From Escherichia phage K30, in sequence record NC_015719.1: a stretch of DNA of 40,940 bases. One strand, given 5' to 3'. Numbering within the stretch: the stretch's first letter is position 1; each line of letters opens with the position of its first letter. The notes under the pieces are model-generated. The model was not told where the DNA came from. It saw nothing but the letters and a program-made list of their open reading frames with translations, and ran no database searches. Of the stretch, positions 1 to 40,940 are shown one piece after another. The position numbers and the translations under genes are program-made.

Positions 1-193
1 TCTCACAGTTTACACTTTTGGTTATCCCCCGGTACCCTCTAAGTTAGCCCAAAGTAACCATAGGCCACCCTAAACCTTCGGTTTAACCTTAGGTTGGACT
101 GTTGGGAACCTTGGGTGATACTATATGTAGTGGTTAGTGTGACCTTGGGATACTATATGTTGATCTCTCTGTATCCCTATCTGTTGGTACTCT

Positions 194-224
194 CTAAGTA
201 TCCACTAAGTATCCACTAAGTAAC
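194..224. repeat. Tandem 11-bp repeat CTAAGTATCCA (about 2.7 copies)
   Basis: Read directly: ctaagtatcca ctaagtatcca ctaagtaac; position is analogous to the short repeats next to the T7 left terminal repeat. Confidence 0.7.
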
Positions 225-334
225 AACCTGAGGTTAGACCTGAGGACATCCATCGACACTATACCTAAGGTTAACTATGCGTCTAACGTTTAGTTACTAT
301 AAGGCTATTGGTGACCATTGTCCATACACCAATC

Positions 335-357
335 AATTAGGTCACACTATAGGGAGA
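335..357 (+). promoter_or_regulatory. Phage RNAP promoter (phiOL-like), aattaggtcacactatagggaga
   Basis: Matches the 23-bp consensus shared by the other 12 promoters; +1 G at about 352. Confidence 0.8.
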
Positions 358-459
358 CACTTAAAGTATTACTAAGAGACCTTTACCATAAAACTACTAT
401 CACTATAGGTCTAACTATAAGACTAACTATAGGTCTAACTAAAAGTTTAACTTTAGGTG

Positions 460-488
460 TTGACATTCAGCTTACGCTATGAGACATT
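460..488 (+). promoter_or_regulatory. Candidate host sigma70 early promoter (T7 A1-like)
   Basis: TTGACA at 460-465, 17-bp spacer, weak -10 GACATT; aligns with the T7 A1 region from memory. Confidence 0.35.
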
Positions 489-593
489 AGCAACCGTTGA
501 GAGACACAACGTCACCAACAACCAGACAATACCGCGAGTTATCTGGTTAGACTGAAGGTCTCAAGTAGTCATCAACCGGACATACGAAAGTGG

Positions 594-622
594 TTGACTC
601 AACGATGAACAAGTAGTAAGAT
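594..622 (+). promoter_or_regulatory. Candidate host sigma70 early promoter (T7 A2/A3-like)
   Basis: TTGACT at 594-599, 17-bp spacer, -10 TAAGAT at 617-622; resembles T7 A3. Confidence 0.45.
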
Positions 623-723
623 GTACCACAGATTCACAGCAACGAAGTACCGCTACCTAGTAGCATCGCTCTTTAACAATATAGTTTGTGTCTTGATAGG
701 CTTACTCACAAAGGTGAACTATT

Positions 724-888
724 ATGACTAACGCACAACGTAAACGCTATGAAGCATTACAAGAGAAACTTGCTGTTGCTTATGCCGCTTGGCAAGCTAA
801 CACAGACAAGAGCAAACACGATAAACTTTACAGTAAAGTGGTTGCAATTAATGCTAAAATAGATAAACTTGTGAATAGTACCTTATAA
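724..888 (+). CDS. Hypothetical small early protein (54 aa, MTNAQRKRYEALQEKL...)
   Basis: ORF below the track threshold; ATG preceded by aaaggtga; lies downstream of the host-type promoters and is flanked by inverted repeats. Confidence 0.35.
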   Translation: MTNAQRKRYEALQEKLAVAYAAWQANTDKSKHDKLYSKVVAINAKIDKLVNSTL

Positions 889-1109
889 GATAGTTGCTGG
901 CACTAGCCGGCCTATCAAGGCACAAACCAAGCTCTTTAACAATTTGGATTAGTCGCTGATATGTATACCACCGCAATAGTGTTTAACTAGTGGTCACATT
1001 CAGGTCTCTGGCAAGGTACGCCCTGCCACCCTGATGGTTAGGCATTGCGCCTAATGAGAGTGACCATAATGATAACCACTAACTATCAATTAACTGAAGG
1101 ATATACACC

Positions 1110-1460
1110 ATGGAACGTAATGCTAACGCTTACTATGAACTTTTGGCAGCCACTGTTGAAGCATTCAACGAGCACATTCAGTACGATAAACTCACCGAGG
1201 ATGATGACTGGTATGATGCACTGCACGAGGTGGTAGACAGTCATGTTCCGCACTATTACCACGAGATTTTCACGGTGATGGCTGCCGATGGTATTGATCA
1301 CGAGTTCGATGACTCAGATCTCATTCCTGACACCAAGGATGTAAGCCGAATCTGTCAAGCACGCATCTATGAGGCACTCTATAATGACATATTGAACGAC
1401 TCTAGAGTCATCTGGTGTGAGCAGGGTGAAGATGATGAAGAGGACGACTATAATGATTAA
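1110..1460 (+). CDS. ocr: Ocr-like DNA-mimic anti-restriction protein (T7 gene 0.3)
   Basis: 116 aa, very acidic; recalled similarity to T7 Ocr (VPHYY..IF.VMA..GID.EF.DS.L.PDTKDV.RI.QARIYE); first gene after the early promoters. Confidence 0.85.
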   Translation: MERNANAYYELLAATVEAFNEHIQYDKLTEDDDWYDALHEVVDSHVPHYYHEIFTVMAADGIDHEFDDSDLIPDTKDVSRICQARIYEALYNDILNDSRVIWCEQGEDDEEDDYND

Positions 1461-1635
1461 GTATGGCATCACTCAGCAGGACATGCAGGAATACCGCAGC
1501 GCCTTTAAGACCGCTTGCGAGTGCACTGCTGGTATGCCTGAAGCAAAAGCCGACTGGTTCGGCTACTACATGGCCCAAATGGCCCAGACCTATCGCACAC
1601 GCAAGGTAATGTATGATAACCCTGTTCGTAATTAG
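1453..1635 (+). CDS. Hypothetical early protein (gene 0.4-0.6 class)
   Basis: ORF with GAGGA upstream of the ATG; overlaps the ocr stop; no recognised homolog. Confidence 0.4.
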   Translation: MIKYGITQQDMQEYRSAFKTACECTAGMPEAKADWFGYYMAQMAQTYRTRKVMYDNPVRN

Positions 1636-1810
1636 CGTATACGCCCTGATTGTCCTGTACTTTGTGCGGGACTTTCGCAAGGGTCTCAAAGTGCACAAAG
1701 CATCATTCAGTTACCTGAAGTGGGGCTTCTTGCCTCGCTTTACTGTACGGCTGCCTAATGGCCGCTTTAAGGCAAACAAAGTGGGGATATTCTATGTCGC
1801 AACATACTAA
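1613..1810 (+). CDS. Hypothetical small early protein with hydrophobic N-terminus
   Basis: 65-aa ORF; N-terminal ITLFVISVYALIVLYFV suggests a transmembrane helix; AAGG upstream. Confidence 0.3.
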   Translation: MITLFVISVYALIVLYFVRDFRKGLKVHKASFSYLKWGFLPRFTVRLPNGRFKANKVGIFYVATY

Positions 1811-2027
1811 CCTGAAGAAAGCATTCAAGATTGCACGGATGGCGATGGCGTACGGCGCCGGGGAGAGGCGCACAAAGAGAATACTCGCGGCAGGTGCTGG
1901 AAGATTGCCAGCTAGACAACGTAAATGGGTAATGCAGCAAGTATACACGGAGTTATATCACCCTCAGCGTATACCGGATGATTGTATATGGTCATCTGTG
2001 GGCTGGAAACGAGTAGTAATTAACTAA
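1794..2027 (+). CDS. Hypothetical basic early protein
   Basis: ORF track 1758..2027; internal ATG at 1794 has a better-placed purine-rich stretch; start is uncertain. Confidence 0.3.
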   Translation: MSQHTNLKKAFKIARMAMAYGAGERRTKRILAAGAGRLPARQRKWVMQQVYTELYHPQRIPDDCIWSSVGWKRVVIN

Positions 2028-2052
2028 CTAACTAACACAAGGAAACAACCTA

Positions 2053-3057
2053 ATGAACTACACCGACATGCAAGCACGCTTAGACGTCATCCGCAACCTG
2101 CCAATCTGTGAACTTGACAAGCGCCAGCCGCTGCTGGTATCACTCATCGCAAACATCGTGAACTACGAGACGTCTGACGGTGACGATACGGACAGCAATT
2201 GGGGTCTTGAAAGTCAGGGCTACTGGCAAACCTTGAAGATTAAGGCTAAAGACGCTGGGTTTAACCTGCTGGGTAATGGCCACTTCAGCGCGGCGTTTAA
2301 GCACGAGCTACTGCCGGGCAAGGTCATTAAGGTTGGCTTTAAGAAAGAAGACTCAGGGGCCGCCTATGTGGCTTTCTGTCGGATGCACCAAGGTCGGGTA
2401 GGGATACCTAATGTCTATCACGTAGCGCGTCACGCTGGCTGCTATACGGTGGTACTTGATGAGCTGGAACCATGTCAGCGCCGTGATAACCATAAGCACG
2501 ACCATTATGCAGACCTTGCGTATTACTTTGTCGAGGGAGAACCAGACCCAGAGGTATACGCGAAGGATGATCTACCATTCATCGAGACGTGCCAGATGAT
2601 TCGTAAGTTCTTCTACGGGATTGCATCATTTGATATGCATAGTGGCAACATTATGTTTACACCGGATGGTAAACCAGTGATTACCGACCCAGTGTCATTC
2701 TCAGCGGACCGGGACCGCAAGCCTTTCTCGCTGGAGCCTGAGGGCCTGCTCGCAGAGATTGAGCAGATAGCGCACGACAAGATGATTGAACGCTGTAAGC
2801 GTAACAAGGCCAAACGTGACCGTGACAGTACGCTGTGTCGTGCCCGTAGAGCAAACAACAAGGCCCGTAGAAACCGCGCTAAAGCAGCCGCGCGATGGCG
2901 GAAGGAGCGGGAAAAGCGTGTTGCCGAGCGCTTTAAGTATGACCTTGCGAAAATCGAGGAGCGCGTTCTAGCGTGGCAAGTGGGACCCGGCCTAGCAATA
3001 CAACAAGGCAAGCCGCTACCAATCGACAACTACCTTCAAGGTAGACTTATGGGTTAA
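2053..3057 (+). CDS. 0.7: Serine/threonine protein kinase, host shut-off (T7 gene 0.7)
   Basis: 334 aa; recalled strong similarity to T7 gp0.7 (LPICELDKRQ, AGF..LGNGHFSAA, KVGFKKEDSGAAY.AFCRM, FDMHSGNIMF); synteny. Confidence 0.9.
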   Translation: MNYTDMQARLDVIRNLPICELDKRQPLLVSLIANIVNYETSDGDDTDSNWGLESQGYWQTLKIKAKDAGFNLLGNGHFSAAFKHELLPGKVIKVGFKKEDSGAAYVAFCRMHQGRVGIPNVYHVARHAGCYTVVLDELEPCQRRDNHKHDHYADLAYYFVEGEPDPEVYAKDDLPFIETCQMIRKFFYGIASFDMHSGNIMFTPDGKPVITDPVSFSADRDRKPFSLEPEGLLAEIEQIAHDKMIERCKRNKAKRDRDSTLCRARRANNKARRNRAKAAARWRKEREKRVAERFKYDLAKIEERVLAWQVGPGLAIQQGKPLPIDNYLQGRLMG

Positions 3058-3070
3058 CGAGGTGTATCTT

Positions 3071-3094
3071 AGGTGCCTCCACCGCGAGGCACCT
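3071..3094 (+). promoter_or_regulatory. Perfect 9-bp stem-loop upstream of gene 1 (possible R1-type processing site)
   Basis: aggtgcctc / caccgc / gaggcacct read directly; no T-run follows, so not a classic intrinsic terminator. Confidence 0.35.
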
Positions 3095-3144
3095 ATAGAT
3101 AAACTTTATTCACCGCCAGTTTACTGGCACCAAAGAGGCACACA

Positions 3145-5865
3145 ATGAACGCATTAAACATTGCACGTAATGACTTCTCAGAGATTGAACTGGCCGCTAT
3201 TCCGTACAACATCCTCAGTGAGCACTACGGGGACAGACTGGCACGTGAGCAGTTAGCACTGGAGCACGAAGCGTACGAGCTGGGCGAACAGCGTTTCCTG
3301 AAGATGTTAGAACGTCAGGTTAAAGCTGGTGAGTTCGCCGACAACGTGGCCGCTAAGCCGCTGGTCTTAACGCTGCACCCACAGCTAACCAAACGCATCG
3401 ACGATTGGAAGGAGGAGCAAGCAAACGCTCGCGGCAAGAAGCCTCGCGCATACTACCCGATTAAGCACGGCGTTGCCTCAGAGTTAGCCCTTAGCATGGG
3501 AGCTGAGGTACTCAATGAGAAGCGTGGAGTGTCCAGTGAGGCTATCGCACTGCTGACCATTAAGGTCGTCTTAGGGACGCTCACAGACGCCTCTAAAGCC
3601 ACCATCCAGCAAGTATCCTCGCAGTTAGGCAAGGCGCTTGAGGATGAGGCCCGCTTCGGTCGTATCCGTGAGCAGGAGGCTTCCTACTTCAAGAAGAACG
3701 TAGCGGACCAGCTGGACAAGCGTGTGGGTCACGTGTACAAGAAGGCTTTCATGCAGGTCGTCGAGGCCGATATGATTTCCAAGGGGATGCTAGGCGGTGA
3801 CAACTGGTCCAGCTGGAAGACCGACGAGCAGATGCACGTTGGGACCAAGCTACTGGAACTACTCATTGAGGGCACTGGTCTGGTGGAAATGACCAAGAAC
3901 AAGATGGCCGATGGCTCTGACGATGTGACCAGCATGCAAATGGTCCAGCTGGCTCCAGCCTTCGTGGAACTACTGAGTAAACGAGCGGGAGCACTCGCAG
4001 GAATCAGCCCAATGTACCAACCGTGCGTAGTCCCTCCGAAACCTTGGGTTGAAACCGTGGGAGGTGGCTACTGGTCTGTAGGTCGTCGTCCGCTGGCACT
4101 GGTGCGTACCCACTCCAAGAAGGCACTGCGTCGCTACGAAGACGTTCACATGCCAGAGGTATACAAAGCGGTCAACCTCGCGCAGAACACACCGTGGAAG
4201 GTAAACAAGAAGGTACTGGCGGTAGTCAATGAGATTATCAACTGGAAGCACTGCCCGGTGGGTGACGTCCCAGCGATTGAACGCGAAGAGCTACCACCAC
4301 GCCCGGACGATATCGACACCAACGAGGTGGCACGTAAGGCTTGGCGCAAGGAGGCCGCAGCGGTTTACCGTAAGGACAAGGCCCGCCAGTCTCGCCGCTT
4401 GTCGATGGAGTTCATGGTCGCACAGGCCAACAAGTTCGCTAACCACAAGGCCATCTGGTTCCCGTACAACATGGACTGGCGTGGTCGTGTGTACGCTGTG
4501 AGCATGTTTAACCCACAGGGTAATGATATGACCAAGGGTATGCTGACATTGGCCAAAGGTAAGCCAATCGGTCTCGATGGGTTCTACTGGCTGAAGATTC
4601 ATGGTGCAAACTGTGCAGGCGTCGATAAGGTTCCTTTCCCTGAGCGCATCAAGTTCATCGAAGAGAACGAGGCCAACATTCTAGCGAGTGCAGCCGACCC
4701 GCTGAATAACACTTGGTGGACCCAGCAAGATTCACCGTTCTGTTTCTTAGCGTTCTGCTTTGAGTATGCAGGGGTAAAACATCACGGCCTGAATTATAAC
4801 TGTTCGCTGCCACTGGCGTTCGATGGGTCCTGCTCTGGGATTCAGCACTTCAGCGCAATGCTCCGCGATTCTATCGGTGGTCGTGCTGTTAACCTGCTGC
4901 CTTCTGATACCGTGCAGGATATCTACAAGATTGTTGCCGACAAGGTTAATGAGGTACTCCACCAGCACGTTATCAACGGGTCTCAGACGGTGGTCGAGCA
5001 GATTGCTGATAAGGAGACTGGTGAGTTCCGCGAGAAGGTAATGTTGGGCGAGTCTGTACTAGCTGCTCAATGGTTACAATACGGGGTGACCCGCAAGGTG
5101 ACCAAGCGTTCTGTCATGACGTTGGCGTATGGTTCCAAAGAGTTTGGCTTCCGCCAGCAAGTTCTGGAAGATACCATTCAGCCCGCTATCGACAATGGTG
5201 AGGGCCTGATGTTTACGCACCCTAACCAAGCGGCTGGCTACATGGCTAAGCTGATTTGGGACGCTGTGACCGTGACCGTAGTAGCCGCTGTCGAGGCGAT
5301 GAACTGGCTGAAGTCTGCTGCTAAACTGCTTGCCGCTGAAGTCAAGGATAAGAAGACCAAGGAGGTACTTCGTAAGCGTTGCGCAATCCACTGGGTAACA
5401 CCAGATGGCTTCCCAGTGTGGCAAGAGTACCGCAAGCAGAATCAAGCGCGCCTGAAGCTGGTCTTCCTAGGTCAAGCCAACGTTAAGATGACGTACAACA
5501 CCGGGAAGGACTCAGAGATTGACGCTCACAAGCAGGAATCTGGTATCGCTCCTAACTTTGTACACTCGCAAGACGGTAGTCACCTTCGCATGACCGTAGT
5601 ACATGCCAACGAGGTCTACGGGATTGACTCCTTCGCACTCATCCATGACTCCTTCGGGACCATTCCGGCAGACGCTGGGAATCTCTTTAAGGCAGTCCGT
5701 GAGACGATGGTAAAGACCTACGAGGACAACGATGTAATCGCTGACTTCTACAACCAGTTCGCTGACCAGCTGCACGAGTCTCAGCTTGACAAGATGCCAG
5801 CGGTACCAGCCAAAGGTGACCTTAATCTGCGTGATATCTTAGAGTCTGACTTTGCGTTTGCGTAA
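3145..5865 (+). CDS. 1: Single-subunit DNA-directed RNA polymerase (T7 gene 1)
   Basis: 906 aa; colinear recalled similarity to T7 RNAP across the whole length; C-terminal ...ILESDFAFA. Confidence 0.98.
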   Translation: MNALNIARNDFSEIELAAIPYNILSEHYGDRLAREQLALEHEAYELGEQRFLKMLERQVKAGEFADNVAAKPLVLTLHPQLTKRIDDWKEEQANARGKKPRAYYPIKHGVASELALSMGAEVLNEKRGVSSEAIALLTIKVVLGTLTDASKATIQQVSSQLGKALEDEARFGRIREQEASYFKKNVADQLDKRVGHVYKKAFMQVVEADMISKGMLGGDNWSSWKTDEQMHVGTKLLELLIEGTGLVEMTKNKMADGSDDVTSMQMVQLAPAFVELLSKRAGALAGISPMYQPCVVPPKPWVETVGGGYWSVGRRPLALVRTHSKKALRRYEDVHMPEVYKAVNLAQNTPWKVNKKVLAVVNEIINWKHCPVGDVPAIEREELPPRPDDIDTNEVARKAWRKEAAAVYRKDKARQSRRLSMEFMVAQANKFANHKAIWFPYNMDWRGRVYAVSMFNPQGNDMTKGMLTLAKGKPIGLDGFYWLKIHGANCAGVDKVPFPERIKFIEENEANILASAADPLNNTWWTQQDSPFCFLAFCFEYAGVKHHGLNYNCSLPLAFDGSCSGIQHFSAMLRDSIGGRAVNLLPSDTVQDIYKIVADKVNEVLHQHVINGSQTVVEQIADKETGEFREKVMLGESVLAAQWLQYGVTRKVTKRSVMTLAYGSKEFGFRQQVLEDTIQPAIDNGEGLMFTHPNQAAGYMAKLIWDAVTVTVVAAVEAMNWLKSAAKLLAAEVKDKKTKEVLRKRCAIHWVTPDGFPVWQEYRKQNQARLKLVFLGQANVKMTYNTGKDSEIDAHKQESGIAPNFVHSQDGSHLRMTVVHANEVYGIDSFALIHDSFGTIPADAGNLFKAVRETMVKTYEDNDVIADFYNQFADQLHESQLDKMPAVPAKGDLNLRDILESDFAFA

Positions 5866-5875
5866 GGTCTCAGGC

Positions 5876-5898
5876 AATTAGGGCACACTATAGGGAAC
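5876..5898 (+). promoter_or_regulatory. Phage RNAP promoter (phi1.1A-like), aattagggcacactatagggaac
   Basis: Consensus match; followed by AT-rich repeats of acttaaag. Confidence 0.85.
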
Positions 5899-5963
5899 CT
5901 TCGAACGACCGAGGTTTCCATTACTTAAAGTCTTAACTTAAAGAATACTTAAAGAGGCACACC

Positions 5964-6524
5964 ATGACTTACTCAATCGTTGTAACCATCTTGTTAATCA
6001 TCACCACAACGCTCTTCATTGTGAGTCTTCGCAATGCAATACGCAACGAAGAACTATTGGGGCGTTTGATTCAAGAAGCAAACTCCCAGCTTAGTGATGC
6101 GTCGACCAAGGTTCTTCGACTGACGGACAAGGCTAACTTCCTTGGTAAACAGGTGCGTTACTTAGAGAGTGAACTTGAGGAAGAAAAGCAGAAGGTGCTA
6201 GATGTGTACGAACTACGGAAGCGACAGCGGGACCGCATGAAGTTCCTGAGCAAGTCTCTTAAGGAAGCCCAAGATGAGCTGATGATGGTCTCTGACCTGA
6301 TTCACGTTAAGTTCACCGCTGTGTTACCTGATGGCACTCGCTCTAAGACTCTCTTTAAGTTAGGACTTGGACCTTGTGGTCTACACGTTAAGTCCCTTCG
6401 CTGGACTGAGCTAGACGACCGCTATCTGATAGACCAGCTGTGCACCAACGGCGAGCGCAAGCAGTTCACTTACTTTAAGAGCGAAGTAGTAGGGCGTATC
6501 GAGTTCCGCCACGGTAAGGTTTAA
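5964..6524 (+). CDS. Hypothetical membrane-anchored coiled-coil protein (gene 1.05 position)
   Basis: 186 aa; N-terminal hydrophobic helix, heptad-like charged stretch, about 80-aa C-terminal domain; AAAGAGG RBS; sits between two phage promoters. Confidence 0.6.
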   Translation: MTYSIVVTILLIITTTLFIVSLRNAIRNEELLGRLIQEANSQLSDASTKVLRLTDKANFLGKQVRYLESELEEEKQKVLDVYELRKRQRDRMKFLSKSLKEAQDELMMVSDLIHVKFTAVLPDGTRSKTLFKLGLGPCGLHVKSLRWTELDDRYLIDQLCTNGERKQFTYFKSEVVGRIEFRHGKV

Positions 6525-40540: not shown

Positions 40541-40940
40541 GTGTATATCTCACAGTTTACACTTTTGGTTATCCCCCGGTACCCTCTAAGTTAGCCCAAA
40601 GTAACCATAGGCCACCCTAAACCTTCGGTTTAACCTTAGGTTGGACTGTTGGGAACCTTGGGTGATACTATATGTAGTGGTTAGTGTGACCTTGGGATAC
40701 TATATGTTGATCTCTCTGTATCCCTATCTGTTGGTACTCTCTAAGTATCCACTAAGTATCCACTAAGTAACAACCTGAGGTTAGACCTGAGGACATCCAT
40801 CGACACTATACCTAAGGTTAACTATGCGTCTAACGTTTAGTTACTATAAGGCTATTGGTGACCATTGTCCATACACCAATCAATTAGGTCACACTATAGG
40901 GAGACACTTAAAGTATTACTAAGAGACCTTTACCATAAAA
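40541..40940. repeat. Right copy of 400-bp direct repeat (includes a second copy of the phiOL-like promoter at about 40875-40897)
   Basis: Identical to positions 1-400 by direct reading. Confidence 0.8.

What the first reader, a model, noticed from the sequence alone, without database searches (positions are those of the whole stretch)
2027..2046. taactaactaactaa puts stop codons in all three forward frames before the kinase gene
Immediately upstream of gene 0.7 the tetramer TAAC is repeated, giving TAA in every forward frame. This terminates any upstream readthrough translation before the kinase RBS.
Basis: seen in the sequence. Interest (0 to 1): 0.2.

Follow-up and report, generated by a model that had tools for sequence, protein, structure and literature searches.

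The report
Variable TAAC repeat at a gene end
The four TAAC repeats just before this Klebsiella phage's kinase gene are a real but ordinary slippage-prone microsatellite: one TAA is the stop codon of the small gene upstream, the copy number runs from one to four in related phages, and nothing shows the three-frame stops were selected.

Summary
The repeat is real but was placed 6 nt too far right. (TAAC)x4 lies at 2021-2036. An imperfect TAAT (2017-2020) and a TAG (2014) precede it. It is the only period-4 repeat with at least 3 copies in the genome, and 0 of 300 simulated genomes reached 4 copies.

The window is a complete KP32-like Klebsiella phage (Przondovirus). ORF 2053-3057 is the gp0.7-type kinase.

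TAA 2025-2027 is the stop codon of a conserved 77-aa gene (1794-2027, phrog_23914). The other TAAs fall in the two other frames. Translation that read through TAA 2025 in frame would meet no further stop until TGA 2109, inside the kinase gene.

Among 31 junction variants that carry the same upstream gene, the perfect tract is 4 to 16 nt long. The closest relative has exactly one unit fewer. Only 7 of 31 contain TAACTAACTAA. The 33 variants with a different sequence upstream of the kinase have no tract longer than 5 nt.

Three-frame stop clusters within 20 nt occur 15 times in this genome, mostly at gene ends. The conserved parts are the Asn-TAA gene end and the kinase ribosome-binding site. 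Between them lies a hypervariable spacer with very little G.

Verdict: a replication-slippage microsatellite seeded on AAC-TAA. The three-frame (in fact six-frame) stop is a geometric by-product. Low interest.

The parts
1613..1810 (+). Small gene of 65 aa (phrog_2385, function unknown). Its last 17 nt overlap the start of the next gene.
   Evidence: ORF, translation, phrog_2385 at E 4.7e-29. Annotated as a CDS in relatives.
1794..2027 (+). Small gene of 77 aa (phrog_23914, function unknown). Its stop codon lies inside the TAAC repeat. It is an optional module, present in only part of the related phages.
   Evidence: Full-length match 1-77/77 to phrog_23914 at E 1.5e-49. There are 29 distinct intact 234-nt alleles with no internal stop or indel, and variable columns by codon position are 28/21/41. 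Annotated as a CDS with the same end in relatives. An SD-like GGGGA lies upstream of ATG 1794.
2014..2020 (+). TAGTAAT: out-of-frame TAG (2014) and TAA (2017) inside the last codons (gta gta att) of the 77-aa gene, with TAAT as an imperfect fifth repeat unit.
   Evidence: The TAG in GAGTAGCA is nearly invariant in relatives because it lies in the conserved K-R-V-A coding sequence.
2021..2036 (+). Perfect (TAAC)x4 microsatellite, with TAA at 2021, 2025, 2029 and 2033.
   Evidence: Copy number varies from 1 to 4 in relatives.
2025..2027 (+). TAA, the true stop codon of the 77-aa gene and the only stop in that frame until TGA 2109.
   Evidence: The position is invariant (N* or D*) in all 31 variants.
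2037..2052 (+). Kinase translation-initiation region, ACAAGGAAACAACCTA, with the Shine-Dalgarno AAGGAA at 2039-2044, 8 nt before the ATG.
   Evidence: [T/C]AAGGAAACAACC[T/A]A-ATG is conserved across nearly all Przondovirus junction variants, whatever lies upstream.
2053..3057 (+). gp0.7-type serine/threonine protein kinase gene (334 aa).
   Evidence: phrog_2828 at E 1.6e-169. Annotated as serine-threonine kinase in relatives. 50% identical to the T7-length contig L067; T7 itself annotates gene 0.7 as serine-threonine kinase at 2021-3100.

Best explanation
The tract is a short microsatellite produced by replication slippage. It was seeded on the Asn-stop end (…ACT AAC TAA) of an optional 77-aa early gene. 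It lies at the start of the short, G-poor, hypervariable spacer before the kinase ribosome-binding site. Shown: one TAA (2025-2027) is that gene's stop codon. Shown: copy number differs by whole 4-nt units between close relatives that share conserved flanks. Follows from geometry: a 4-nt unit containing TAA puts a stop in every forward frame once about 3 units are present, and its complement TTAG does the same on the other strand. Inferred: the extra TAAs have no dedicated role. Their practical effects are to keep the tract non-coding and to move the upstream termination site 4 nt further from the kinase start per unit (21 nt in the closest relative, 25 nt here). Ribosomes finishing the 77-aa gene are released 12 nt before the kinase Shine-Dalgarno, in an unstructured leader. 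The kinase is then translated from its own conserved ribosome-binding site.
For: Position and frames are. The tract is the only period-4 repeat with at least 3 copies in the genome, and 0 of 300 simulations reach 4 copies. TAA 2025 ends a gene that matches phrog_23914 over its full length, and the same end is annotated in relatives. The ORF is intact in 29 alleles. Among 31 same-gene junction variants, perfect tract lengths are 4 nt (9 variants), 7 nt (13), 8 nt (2), 11 nt (2), 12 nt (3) and 16 nt (2). The closest relative, VLCpiA3d (94% identity over 1500-2600), has …CTAACTAACTAACATAAGG, which is exactly one unit fewer than the window. A second set of variants with a different, longer spacer shows a 2/3/4-copy series between identical flanks: phi1_066006, K11PH164C1 and L032. 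The relative frame of the two genes takes all three values, and stop-to-ATG spacing runs from 21 to 38 nt. The flanks are conserved and the spacer is hypervariable, with (CA)n runs as well. No RNA structure is predicted (z = 0.09, tract unpaired in the centroid). There is no Rfam match, no sigma-70 promoter or terminator pattern on the + strand at the site, and no phage promoter between 357 and 5878.
Against: From the upstream stop codon to the kinase ATG, 9 of 28 variants close all three frames, against 1.6 expected when each spacer is shuffled (0 of 2000 shuffles reach 9). So the spacer is richer in stops than its composition predicts. The variants are related by descent. The surplus traces to three sources: TAAC units; a second stop 8 nt after the gene end (ACCAC-TAA/TGA/TAG) that resembles the gene end of phages lacking the 77-aa gene; and the TAA of the TAAGGA Shine-Dalgarno. 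Weak selection for stops is therefore not excluded. Slippage itself was not observed; it is inferred from whole-unit differences.
Confidence: 0.8

Rival explanations
1. One reading: a selected three-frame translation insulator. The repeat is kept because it stops ribosomes arriving in any frame before they reach and occlude the kinase ribosome-binding site.
For: All three frames are closed within 11 nt. Over the last 50 nt before the ATG, 24 of 31 same-gene variants close all three frames. Spacers are richer in stops than composition-shuffled spacers, 9 of 28 against 1.6. The same sequence, TAACTAACTAA, appears at the 5' end of knockout primers named 'stopup…', apparently as an added stop tag (PMC2752462).
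Against: Only 7 of 31 same-gene variants have the tract-encoded three-frame stop, and copy number runs from 1 to 4. The 33 variants with a different upstream sequence have no tract longer than 5 nt, and 28 of all 64 variants leave at least one frame open in the last 50 nt. Much of the three-frame closure in relatives relies on a TAG that lies inside conserved coding sequence (GAG TAG CA, coding R-V-A). When the last 24 nt of the gene are included, the observed 23 of 28 is close to the shuffled 20.6. Only one frame has a recognised gene entering the junction. In-frame readthrough is not caught until 2109. Comparable clusters occur 15 times in the genome, mostly at gene ends.
Confidence: 0.08
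2. Leader composition is what is selected. The spacer before the kinase Shine-Dalgarno must be G-poor, A/C-rich and unstructured, serving as a standby or S1-binding platform with no competing SD-like sites. TAAC repeats are one of many acceptable fillers, as are the (CA)n runs in relatives. Copy number may fine-tune the spacing between the termination site and the ribosome-binding site.
For: Across 64 junction variants, positions -40 to -15 average 5% G, 42% A, 35% C and 17% T, while the sequence itself is hypervariable. The genome as a whole is 27% G. The tract is unpaired in the centroid fold and shows no excess structure. A/U-rich and CA-rich leaders are known to enhance translation in E. 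coli; I cite this from my own knowledge and did not test it.
Against: There is no direct test of translation. Low G could be partly inherited from shared ancestry of the spacers. This reading adds to the slippage origin rather than competing with it.
Confidence: 0.35
3. Pure chance, or a sequencing, assembly or cloning artefact such as an engineered stop cassette.
For: The tract is short (16 nt). TAACTAACTAA also occurs in engineered primers, apparently as a stop tag.
Against: 0 of 300 simulated genomes contain a four-copy tetranucleotide repeat. The same tract, with 2 to 4 copies, occurs at the same site in independently sequenced natural phages and in metagenome and virome contigs.
Confidence: 0.02

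Closest known systems
Simple-sequence repeats (microsatellites) that vary by replication slippage
   Same: Perfect head-to-tail copies of a 4-nt unit. Whole-unit copy-number differences (1 to 4) between close relatives with conserved flanks. Accompanied by (CA)n runs in the same spacer.
   Different: Very short, with at most 4 copies seen. The tract begins 4 nt before a stop codon, so changes in copy number at 2 or more copies alter neither the upstream protein nor the kinase.
Engineered three-frame translation terminators (TAACTAACTAA-type stop tags or linkers)
   Same: Identical sequence and identical geometric property: TAA in each forward frame. TAACTAACTAA sits at the 5' end of knockout primers named 'stopup…' in PMC2752462; the paper's passage shown does not state its purpose.
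   Different: The phage tract is natural and variable. One of its TAAs is an ordinary gene stop, and the three-frame property is not conserved among relatives.
Tandem in-frame stop codons that back up a leaky primary stop
   Same: Several stop codons clustered at a gene end.
   Different: The extra stops are all out of frame. The next in-frame stop is 27 codons downstream, at 2109, so the tract gives no backup against readthrough.
Phage T7 early region, gene 0.6A/0.6B to 0.7 junction
   Same: Small genes of unknown function directly before the 0.7 kinase gene in the early operon. A short A/C-rich spacer with TAA-containing sequence (…ctcaTAAcgaacaTAAaggacacaatgcaATG).
   Different: T7 has no TAAC repeat. 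The 77-aa protein shows no similarity to the frame-shifted part of T7 0.6B (no alignment at E up to 100).
Contingency loci (phase-variable repeats in bacteria and phages)
   Same: A slippage-prone repeat whose unit is not a multiple of 3, next to genes.
   Different: The repeat does not interrupt a reading frame or a promoter spacer. No on/off switch can be derived from the sequence.

Membership tests
Slippage-type microsatellite (SSR/VNTR) | At least 3 perfect head-to-tail copies of a 1-6 nt unit, more than composition predicts | tested here: met
   (TAAC)x4 at 2021-2036. 0 of 300 Markov simulations have 4 copies, and simulations average 0.51 three-copy tracts per genome.
Slippage-type microsatellite (SSR/VNTR) | Copy number differs by whole units among close relatives with conserved flanks | tested here: met
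   Window 4 copies against VLCpiA3d and K16PH164C3 with 3. L032 with 4, K11PH164C1 with 3 and phi1_066006 with 2 share identical flanks.
Slippage-type microsatellite (SSR/VNTR) | Observed instability within a population or during passage | not testable with these tools
   Needs deep sequencing of phage stocks or serial passage.
Selected three-frame translational stop element | Stop codons in all three forward frames within a short span before the downstream ribosome-binding site | tested here: met
   TAA at 2021, 2025 and 2029 covers the three frames in 11 nt, 10 nt before the SD.
Selected three-frame translational stop element | The three-frame property is conserved in relatives beyond what gene stops, SD sequence and composition give | tested here: not met
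   7 of 31 same-gene variants have TAACTAACTAA. 9 of 28 close three frames between the stop and the ATG. 28 of 64 variants leave a frame open in the last 50 nt. With the last 24 nt of the gene included, 23 of 28 observed against 20.6 shuffled.
Selected three-frame translational stop element | Translation actually arrives in more than one frame | tested here: inconclusive
   Only the 77-aa gene's frame carries a recognised gene into the junction. The other + ORF of 30 aa or more between 1810 and 2027 is a 33-aa TTG ORF at 1831-1932. Ribosome profiling would be needed.
Tandem in-frame stop codons (readthrough backup) | A second stop in the same frame within a few codons of the primary stop | tested here: not met
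   The next in-frame stop after TAA 2025 is TGA 2109, 27 codons later.
Phase-variable contingency repeat | The repeat lies inside a coding frame or promoter spacer, so copy-number change switches a gene on or off | tested here: not met
   The tract starts at the third base of the antepenultimate codon. Any copy number of 2 or more gives the same …N-stop. No sigma-70 or phage promoter lies at the site.
Structured RNA element (RNase III site, terminator, Rfam family) | Stable or conserved secondary structure, or a match to a covariance model | tested here: not met
   Fold z-score 0.09 with the tract unpaired. No Rfam hit at E up to 1 in 1-6000. No terminator pattern on the + strand.

The most novel reading that the evidence does not exclude
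The (TAAC)n tract, together with the (CA)n runs in relatives, could be a selected tuning knob. Slippage would change, in 4-nt steps, the distance between the termination site of the upstream gene and the kinase ribosome-binding site. That would adjust reinitiation or standby binding, and so the dose of the host-shutoff kinase, giving the phage population heritable and reversible variation in early-gene expression.
Probability: 0.04. Interest if true: 0.35.

Novelty: already known. Interest (0 to 1): 0.07.

Why it matters
It matters little. The useful result is a corrected annotation. One TAA of the repeat is the stop codon of a conserved 77-aa early gene that several deposited relatives leave unannotated. 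The repeat is also a small copy-number-variable marker at a mosaic junction of Klebsiella Przondoviruses. The case is a caution that any 4-nt repeat containing TAA closes all frames automatically, so that property alone is not evidence of design. If the tuning-knob reading were true, it would be a modest example of repeat-mediated expression tuning in a lytic phage.

Tried and rejected
- **Promoter or terminator at the site.** None on the + strand. No phage promoter lies between 357 and 5878.
- **RNase III site or structured RNA.** The fold is no better than shuffles, and there is no Rfam match.
- **T7 0.6A/0.6B-style frameshift.** This would have made multi-frame stops meaningful. The 77-aa protein has no detectable similarity to the shifted part of T7 0.6B. 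It also has its own ATG and an SD-like GGGGA.
- **Metagenome scan with the 16-mer GGCTGGAAACGAGTAG.** Only 4 of the loci it returned carried this junction, and none added a new variant.
- **Scan of viral contigs for TAACTAACTAACTAA.** Considered and not run. The tract closes all six frames, so every natural occurrence must be non-coding, and its position at gene ends would say nothing about function.
- **Engineered origin.** Rejected, because independently sequenced natural relatives share the tract.

Full report
**What the window is.** The region 1500-2600 matches 415 phage records, 368 of them Klebsiella phages. The best match is Klebsiella phage VLCpiA3d (Przondovirus, Autographiviridae) at 94.4% identity. 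The window is identical to a 40,940-nt IMG/VR contig (L002). Its first 393 nt recur exactly at its right end, so it is a complete KP32-like genome of the T7 supergroup. ORF 2053-3057 (334 aa) is the gp0.7-type serine/threonine kinase. It matches phrog_2828 at E 1.6e-169 and is 50% identical to the T7-length contig L067. T7 itself annotates gene 0.7 as a kinase at 2021-3100.

**Check of the observation.**
- The quoted 15-mer taactaactaactaa lies at 2021-2035, not 2027-2046.
- The perfect (TAAC)x4 is 2021-2036. It is preceded by TAAT (2017-2020) and a TAG at 2014. Tandem Repeats Finder reports 2017-2036 as 5 copies.
- Forward stops, by position mod 3: frame 1 has TAG 2014, TAA 2017 and TAA 2029. 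Frame 2 has TAA 2021 and TAA 2033. Frame 0 has TAA 2025 only.
The complement (TTAG units) closes all three reverse frames too.
- As a repeat it is not chance. It is the only period-4 repeat with at least 3 copies in the genome, and none of 300 first-order Markov simulations gave a 4-copy tract.

TAA 2025-2027 is a genuine stop codon. ORF 1758-2027 contains an internal ATG at 1794, preceded by GGGGA. The 77-aa product from 1794 matches phrog_23914 end to end (1-77 of 77, E 1.5e-49). Seven of the GenBank relatives I fetched annotate the same 234-nt CDS ending at the equivalent position, and an eighth annotates a shorter version with the same end. Others, including VLCpiA3d, leave it unannotated. 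In 29 distinct alleles the ORF is intact with no indel, and third codon positions vary most, 28/21/41. The gene overlaps the end of the preceding 65-aa gene (1613-1810, phrog_2385) by 17 nt.

I collected the junction from 80 IMG/VR loci found with the kinase protein, from loci found with a 16-mer at the upstream gene's end, and from 21 GenBank phages. This gave 64 distinct 80-nt sequences upstream of the kinase ATG.
- The sequence is conserved only from [T/C]AAGGAAACAACC[T/A]A-ATG onward. Upstream of that, several unrelated sequences occur, so this is a mosaic junction.
- 31 variants carry the same 77-aa gene. In all of them the gene ends …W-K-R-V-x-x-N/D-stop at the same position.
- Behind that stop, the perfect tract is 4 nt in 9 variants, 7 nt in 13, 8 nt in 2, 11 nt in 2, 12 nt in 3 and 16 nt in 2.
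- The closest relatives, VLCpiA3d and K16PH164C3, have exactly one unit fewer than the window between the same flanks.
- A second set of variants with a longer spacer shows a 2/3/4-copy series (phi1_066006, K11PH164C1, L032).
- The 33 variants with a different upstream sequence have no tract longer than 5 nt.
- Stop-to-ATG spacing runs from 21 to 38 nt, and the relative frame of the two genes takes all three values.

This pattern of conserved flanks, whole-unit differences and neighbouring (CA)n runs of variable length is what replication slippage leaves behind.

**Is the three-frame property selected?** The evidence is mostly negative.
- Only 7 of 31 same-gene variants contain TAACTAACTAA.
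- In the last 40 nt before the ATG, 24 of 64 variants close all three frames. In the last 50 nt, 36 of 64 do.
- Within this genome, three-frame stop clusters within 20 nt occur 15 times on the + strand, and 3 are within 11 nt. Ten of the 15 have an ORF of my rough call ending in them. Several arise simply from phage promoter starts, TAATTAGG….
- One result points the other way. From the upstream stop to the ATG, 9 of 28 variants close all three frames, against 1.6 in spacer shuffles.
- The variants are not independent, and the surplus has identifiable sources. One is the TAAC units themselves. Another is the TAA of the TAAGGA Shine-Dalgarno; TAAGGAGGT is the full complement of the 16S rRNA 3' end, which I state from established knowledge.
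- The third source is a second stop 8 nt after the gene end (ACCAC-TAA/TGA/TAG-CACAC). It resembles the gene end plus spacer of phages that lack the 77-aa gene (ACCCAT-TGA-CACAC).
- When the last 24 nt of the gene are included, the observed 23 of 28 is close to the shuffled 20.6.
- The tract cannot catch true readthrough. The upstream gene's frame has a single stop, and suppression of it would give a 27-codon extension ending at TGA 2109, inside the kinase gene.
- Only that frame carries a recognised gene into the junction.

**Other functions examined.** No sigma-70 promoter or terminator pattern lies on the + strand at the site. No phage promoter lies between 357 and 5878. RNA folding is no better than shuffles, and the tract is unpaired. 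There is no Rfam hit. The 77-aa protein is unrelated to the shifted part of T7 0.6B, so no T7-like frameshift product needs multi-frame stops.

**What does look constrained.** Spacer composition looks constrained. Across the 64 variants, positions -40 to -15 are 5% G, 42% A, 35% C and 17% T, against 27% G genome-wide. This fits an unstructured leader before the kinase ribosome-binding site. TAAC and CA repeats are both compatible with that composition and both prone to slippage. This step is inference.

**Likely origin (inferred).** In relatives the gene ends GCAACTAACTAA. That differs at 2 of 12 positions from the end of the preceding gene in the same genomes, GCAACGCACTAA. The 77-aa module seems to have been joined at a short gene-end motif. 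The resulting ACTAACTAA already held two CTAA/TAAC units, and slippage then expanded them to 3 and 4.

**Comparison with known things.** The sequence TAACTAACTAA also appears at the 5' end of knockout primers named 'stopup…' in PMC2752462, apparently as an added three-frame stop tag. That is a resemblance in form only. The tract is a member of the ordinary class of slippage-type simple-sequence repeats. It fails the tests for tandem in-frame stops, for a phase-variable contingency locus, and for a conserved three-frame insulator.

**Verdict.** Selection for insulation is not supported. The feature is ordinary and of low interest.

Noticed in passing
window 1-393 and 40548-40940: The first 393 nt recur exactly at the right end (offset 40547, 0 mismatches). 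This is a direct terminal repeat, long for a T7-like phage, or else assembly redundancy. It contains a phage-promoter-like site at 337-357 and again at 40884-40904.
   Followed up: partly
window 402-458: A tandem array of about 4.8 copies of ACTATAGGTCTA (also read as period 24) just inside the left end, resembling truncated promoter cores.
   Followed up: no
window 1990-2052 and the equivalent site in L003-L081: The segment before the kinase ribosome-binding site is a mosaic hot spot. There are 64 distinct 80-nt upstream variants with several unrelated upstream sequences. Conservation starts only at [T/C]AAGGAAACAACC. The spacer is about 5% G and carries (CA)n runs of variable length.
   Followed up: partly
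window 1796-1810 versus 2013-2027; relatives: The last 12 nt of the 77-aa gene in relatives (GCAACTAACTAA) nearly duplicate the last 12 nt of the preceding gene (GCAACGCACTAA). The spacer behind it resembles the gene end of phages that lack the module. This suggests the module was inserted by recombination at a short gene-end motif.
   Followed up: partly
window 1794-2027: The 77-aa gene (phrog_23914) is not annotated in several deposited relatives, for example VLCpiA3d, K42PH8, M1-DAzarov and Rappa3, although the ORF is intact there.
   Followed up: yes
window 337, 5878, 7057, 9234, 10903, 17714, 20133, 21153, 25573, 32859, 40052, 40884: Twelve matches, all on the + strand, to a phage-RNA-polymerase promoter consensus TTAGGRCMCACTATAGGGAGA (0 expected by chance). 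Their TAATTAGG starts create three-frame stop clusters at several gene ends.
   Followed up: partly
window 2037-2044: The window has ACAAGGAA where most relatives have ATAAGGAA. It therefore lacks the Shine-Dalgarno-associated TAA that closes one frame in most relatives.
   Followed up: yes
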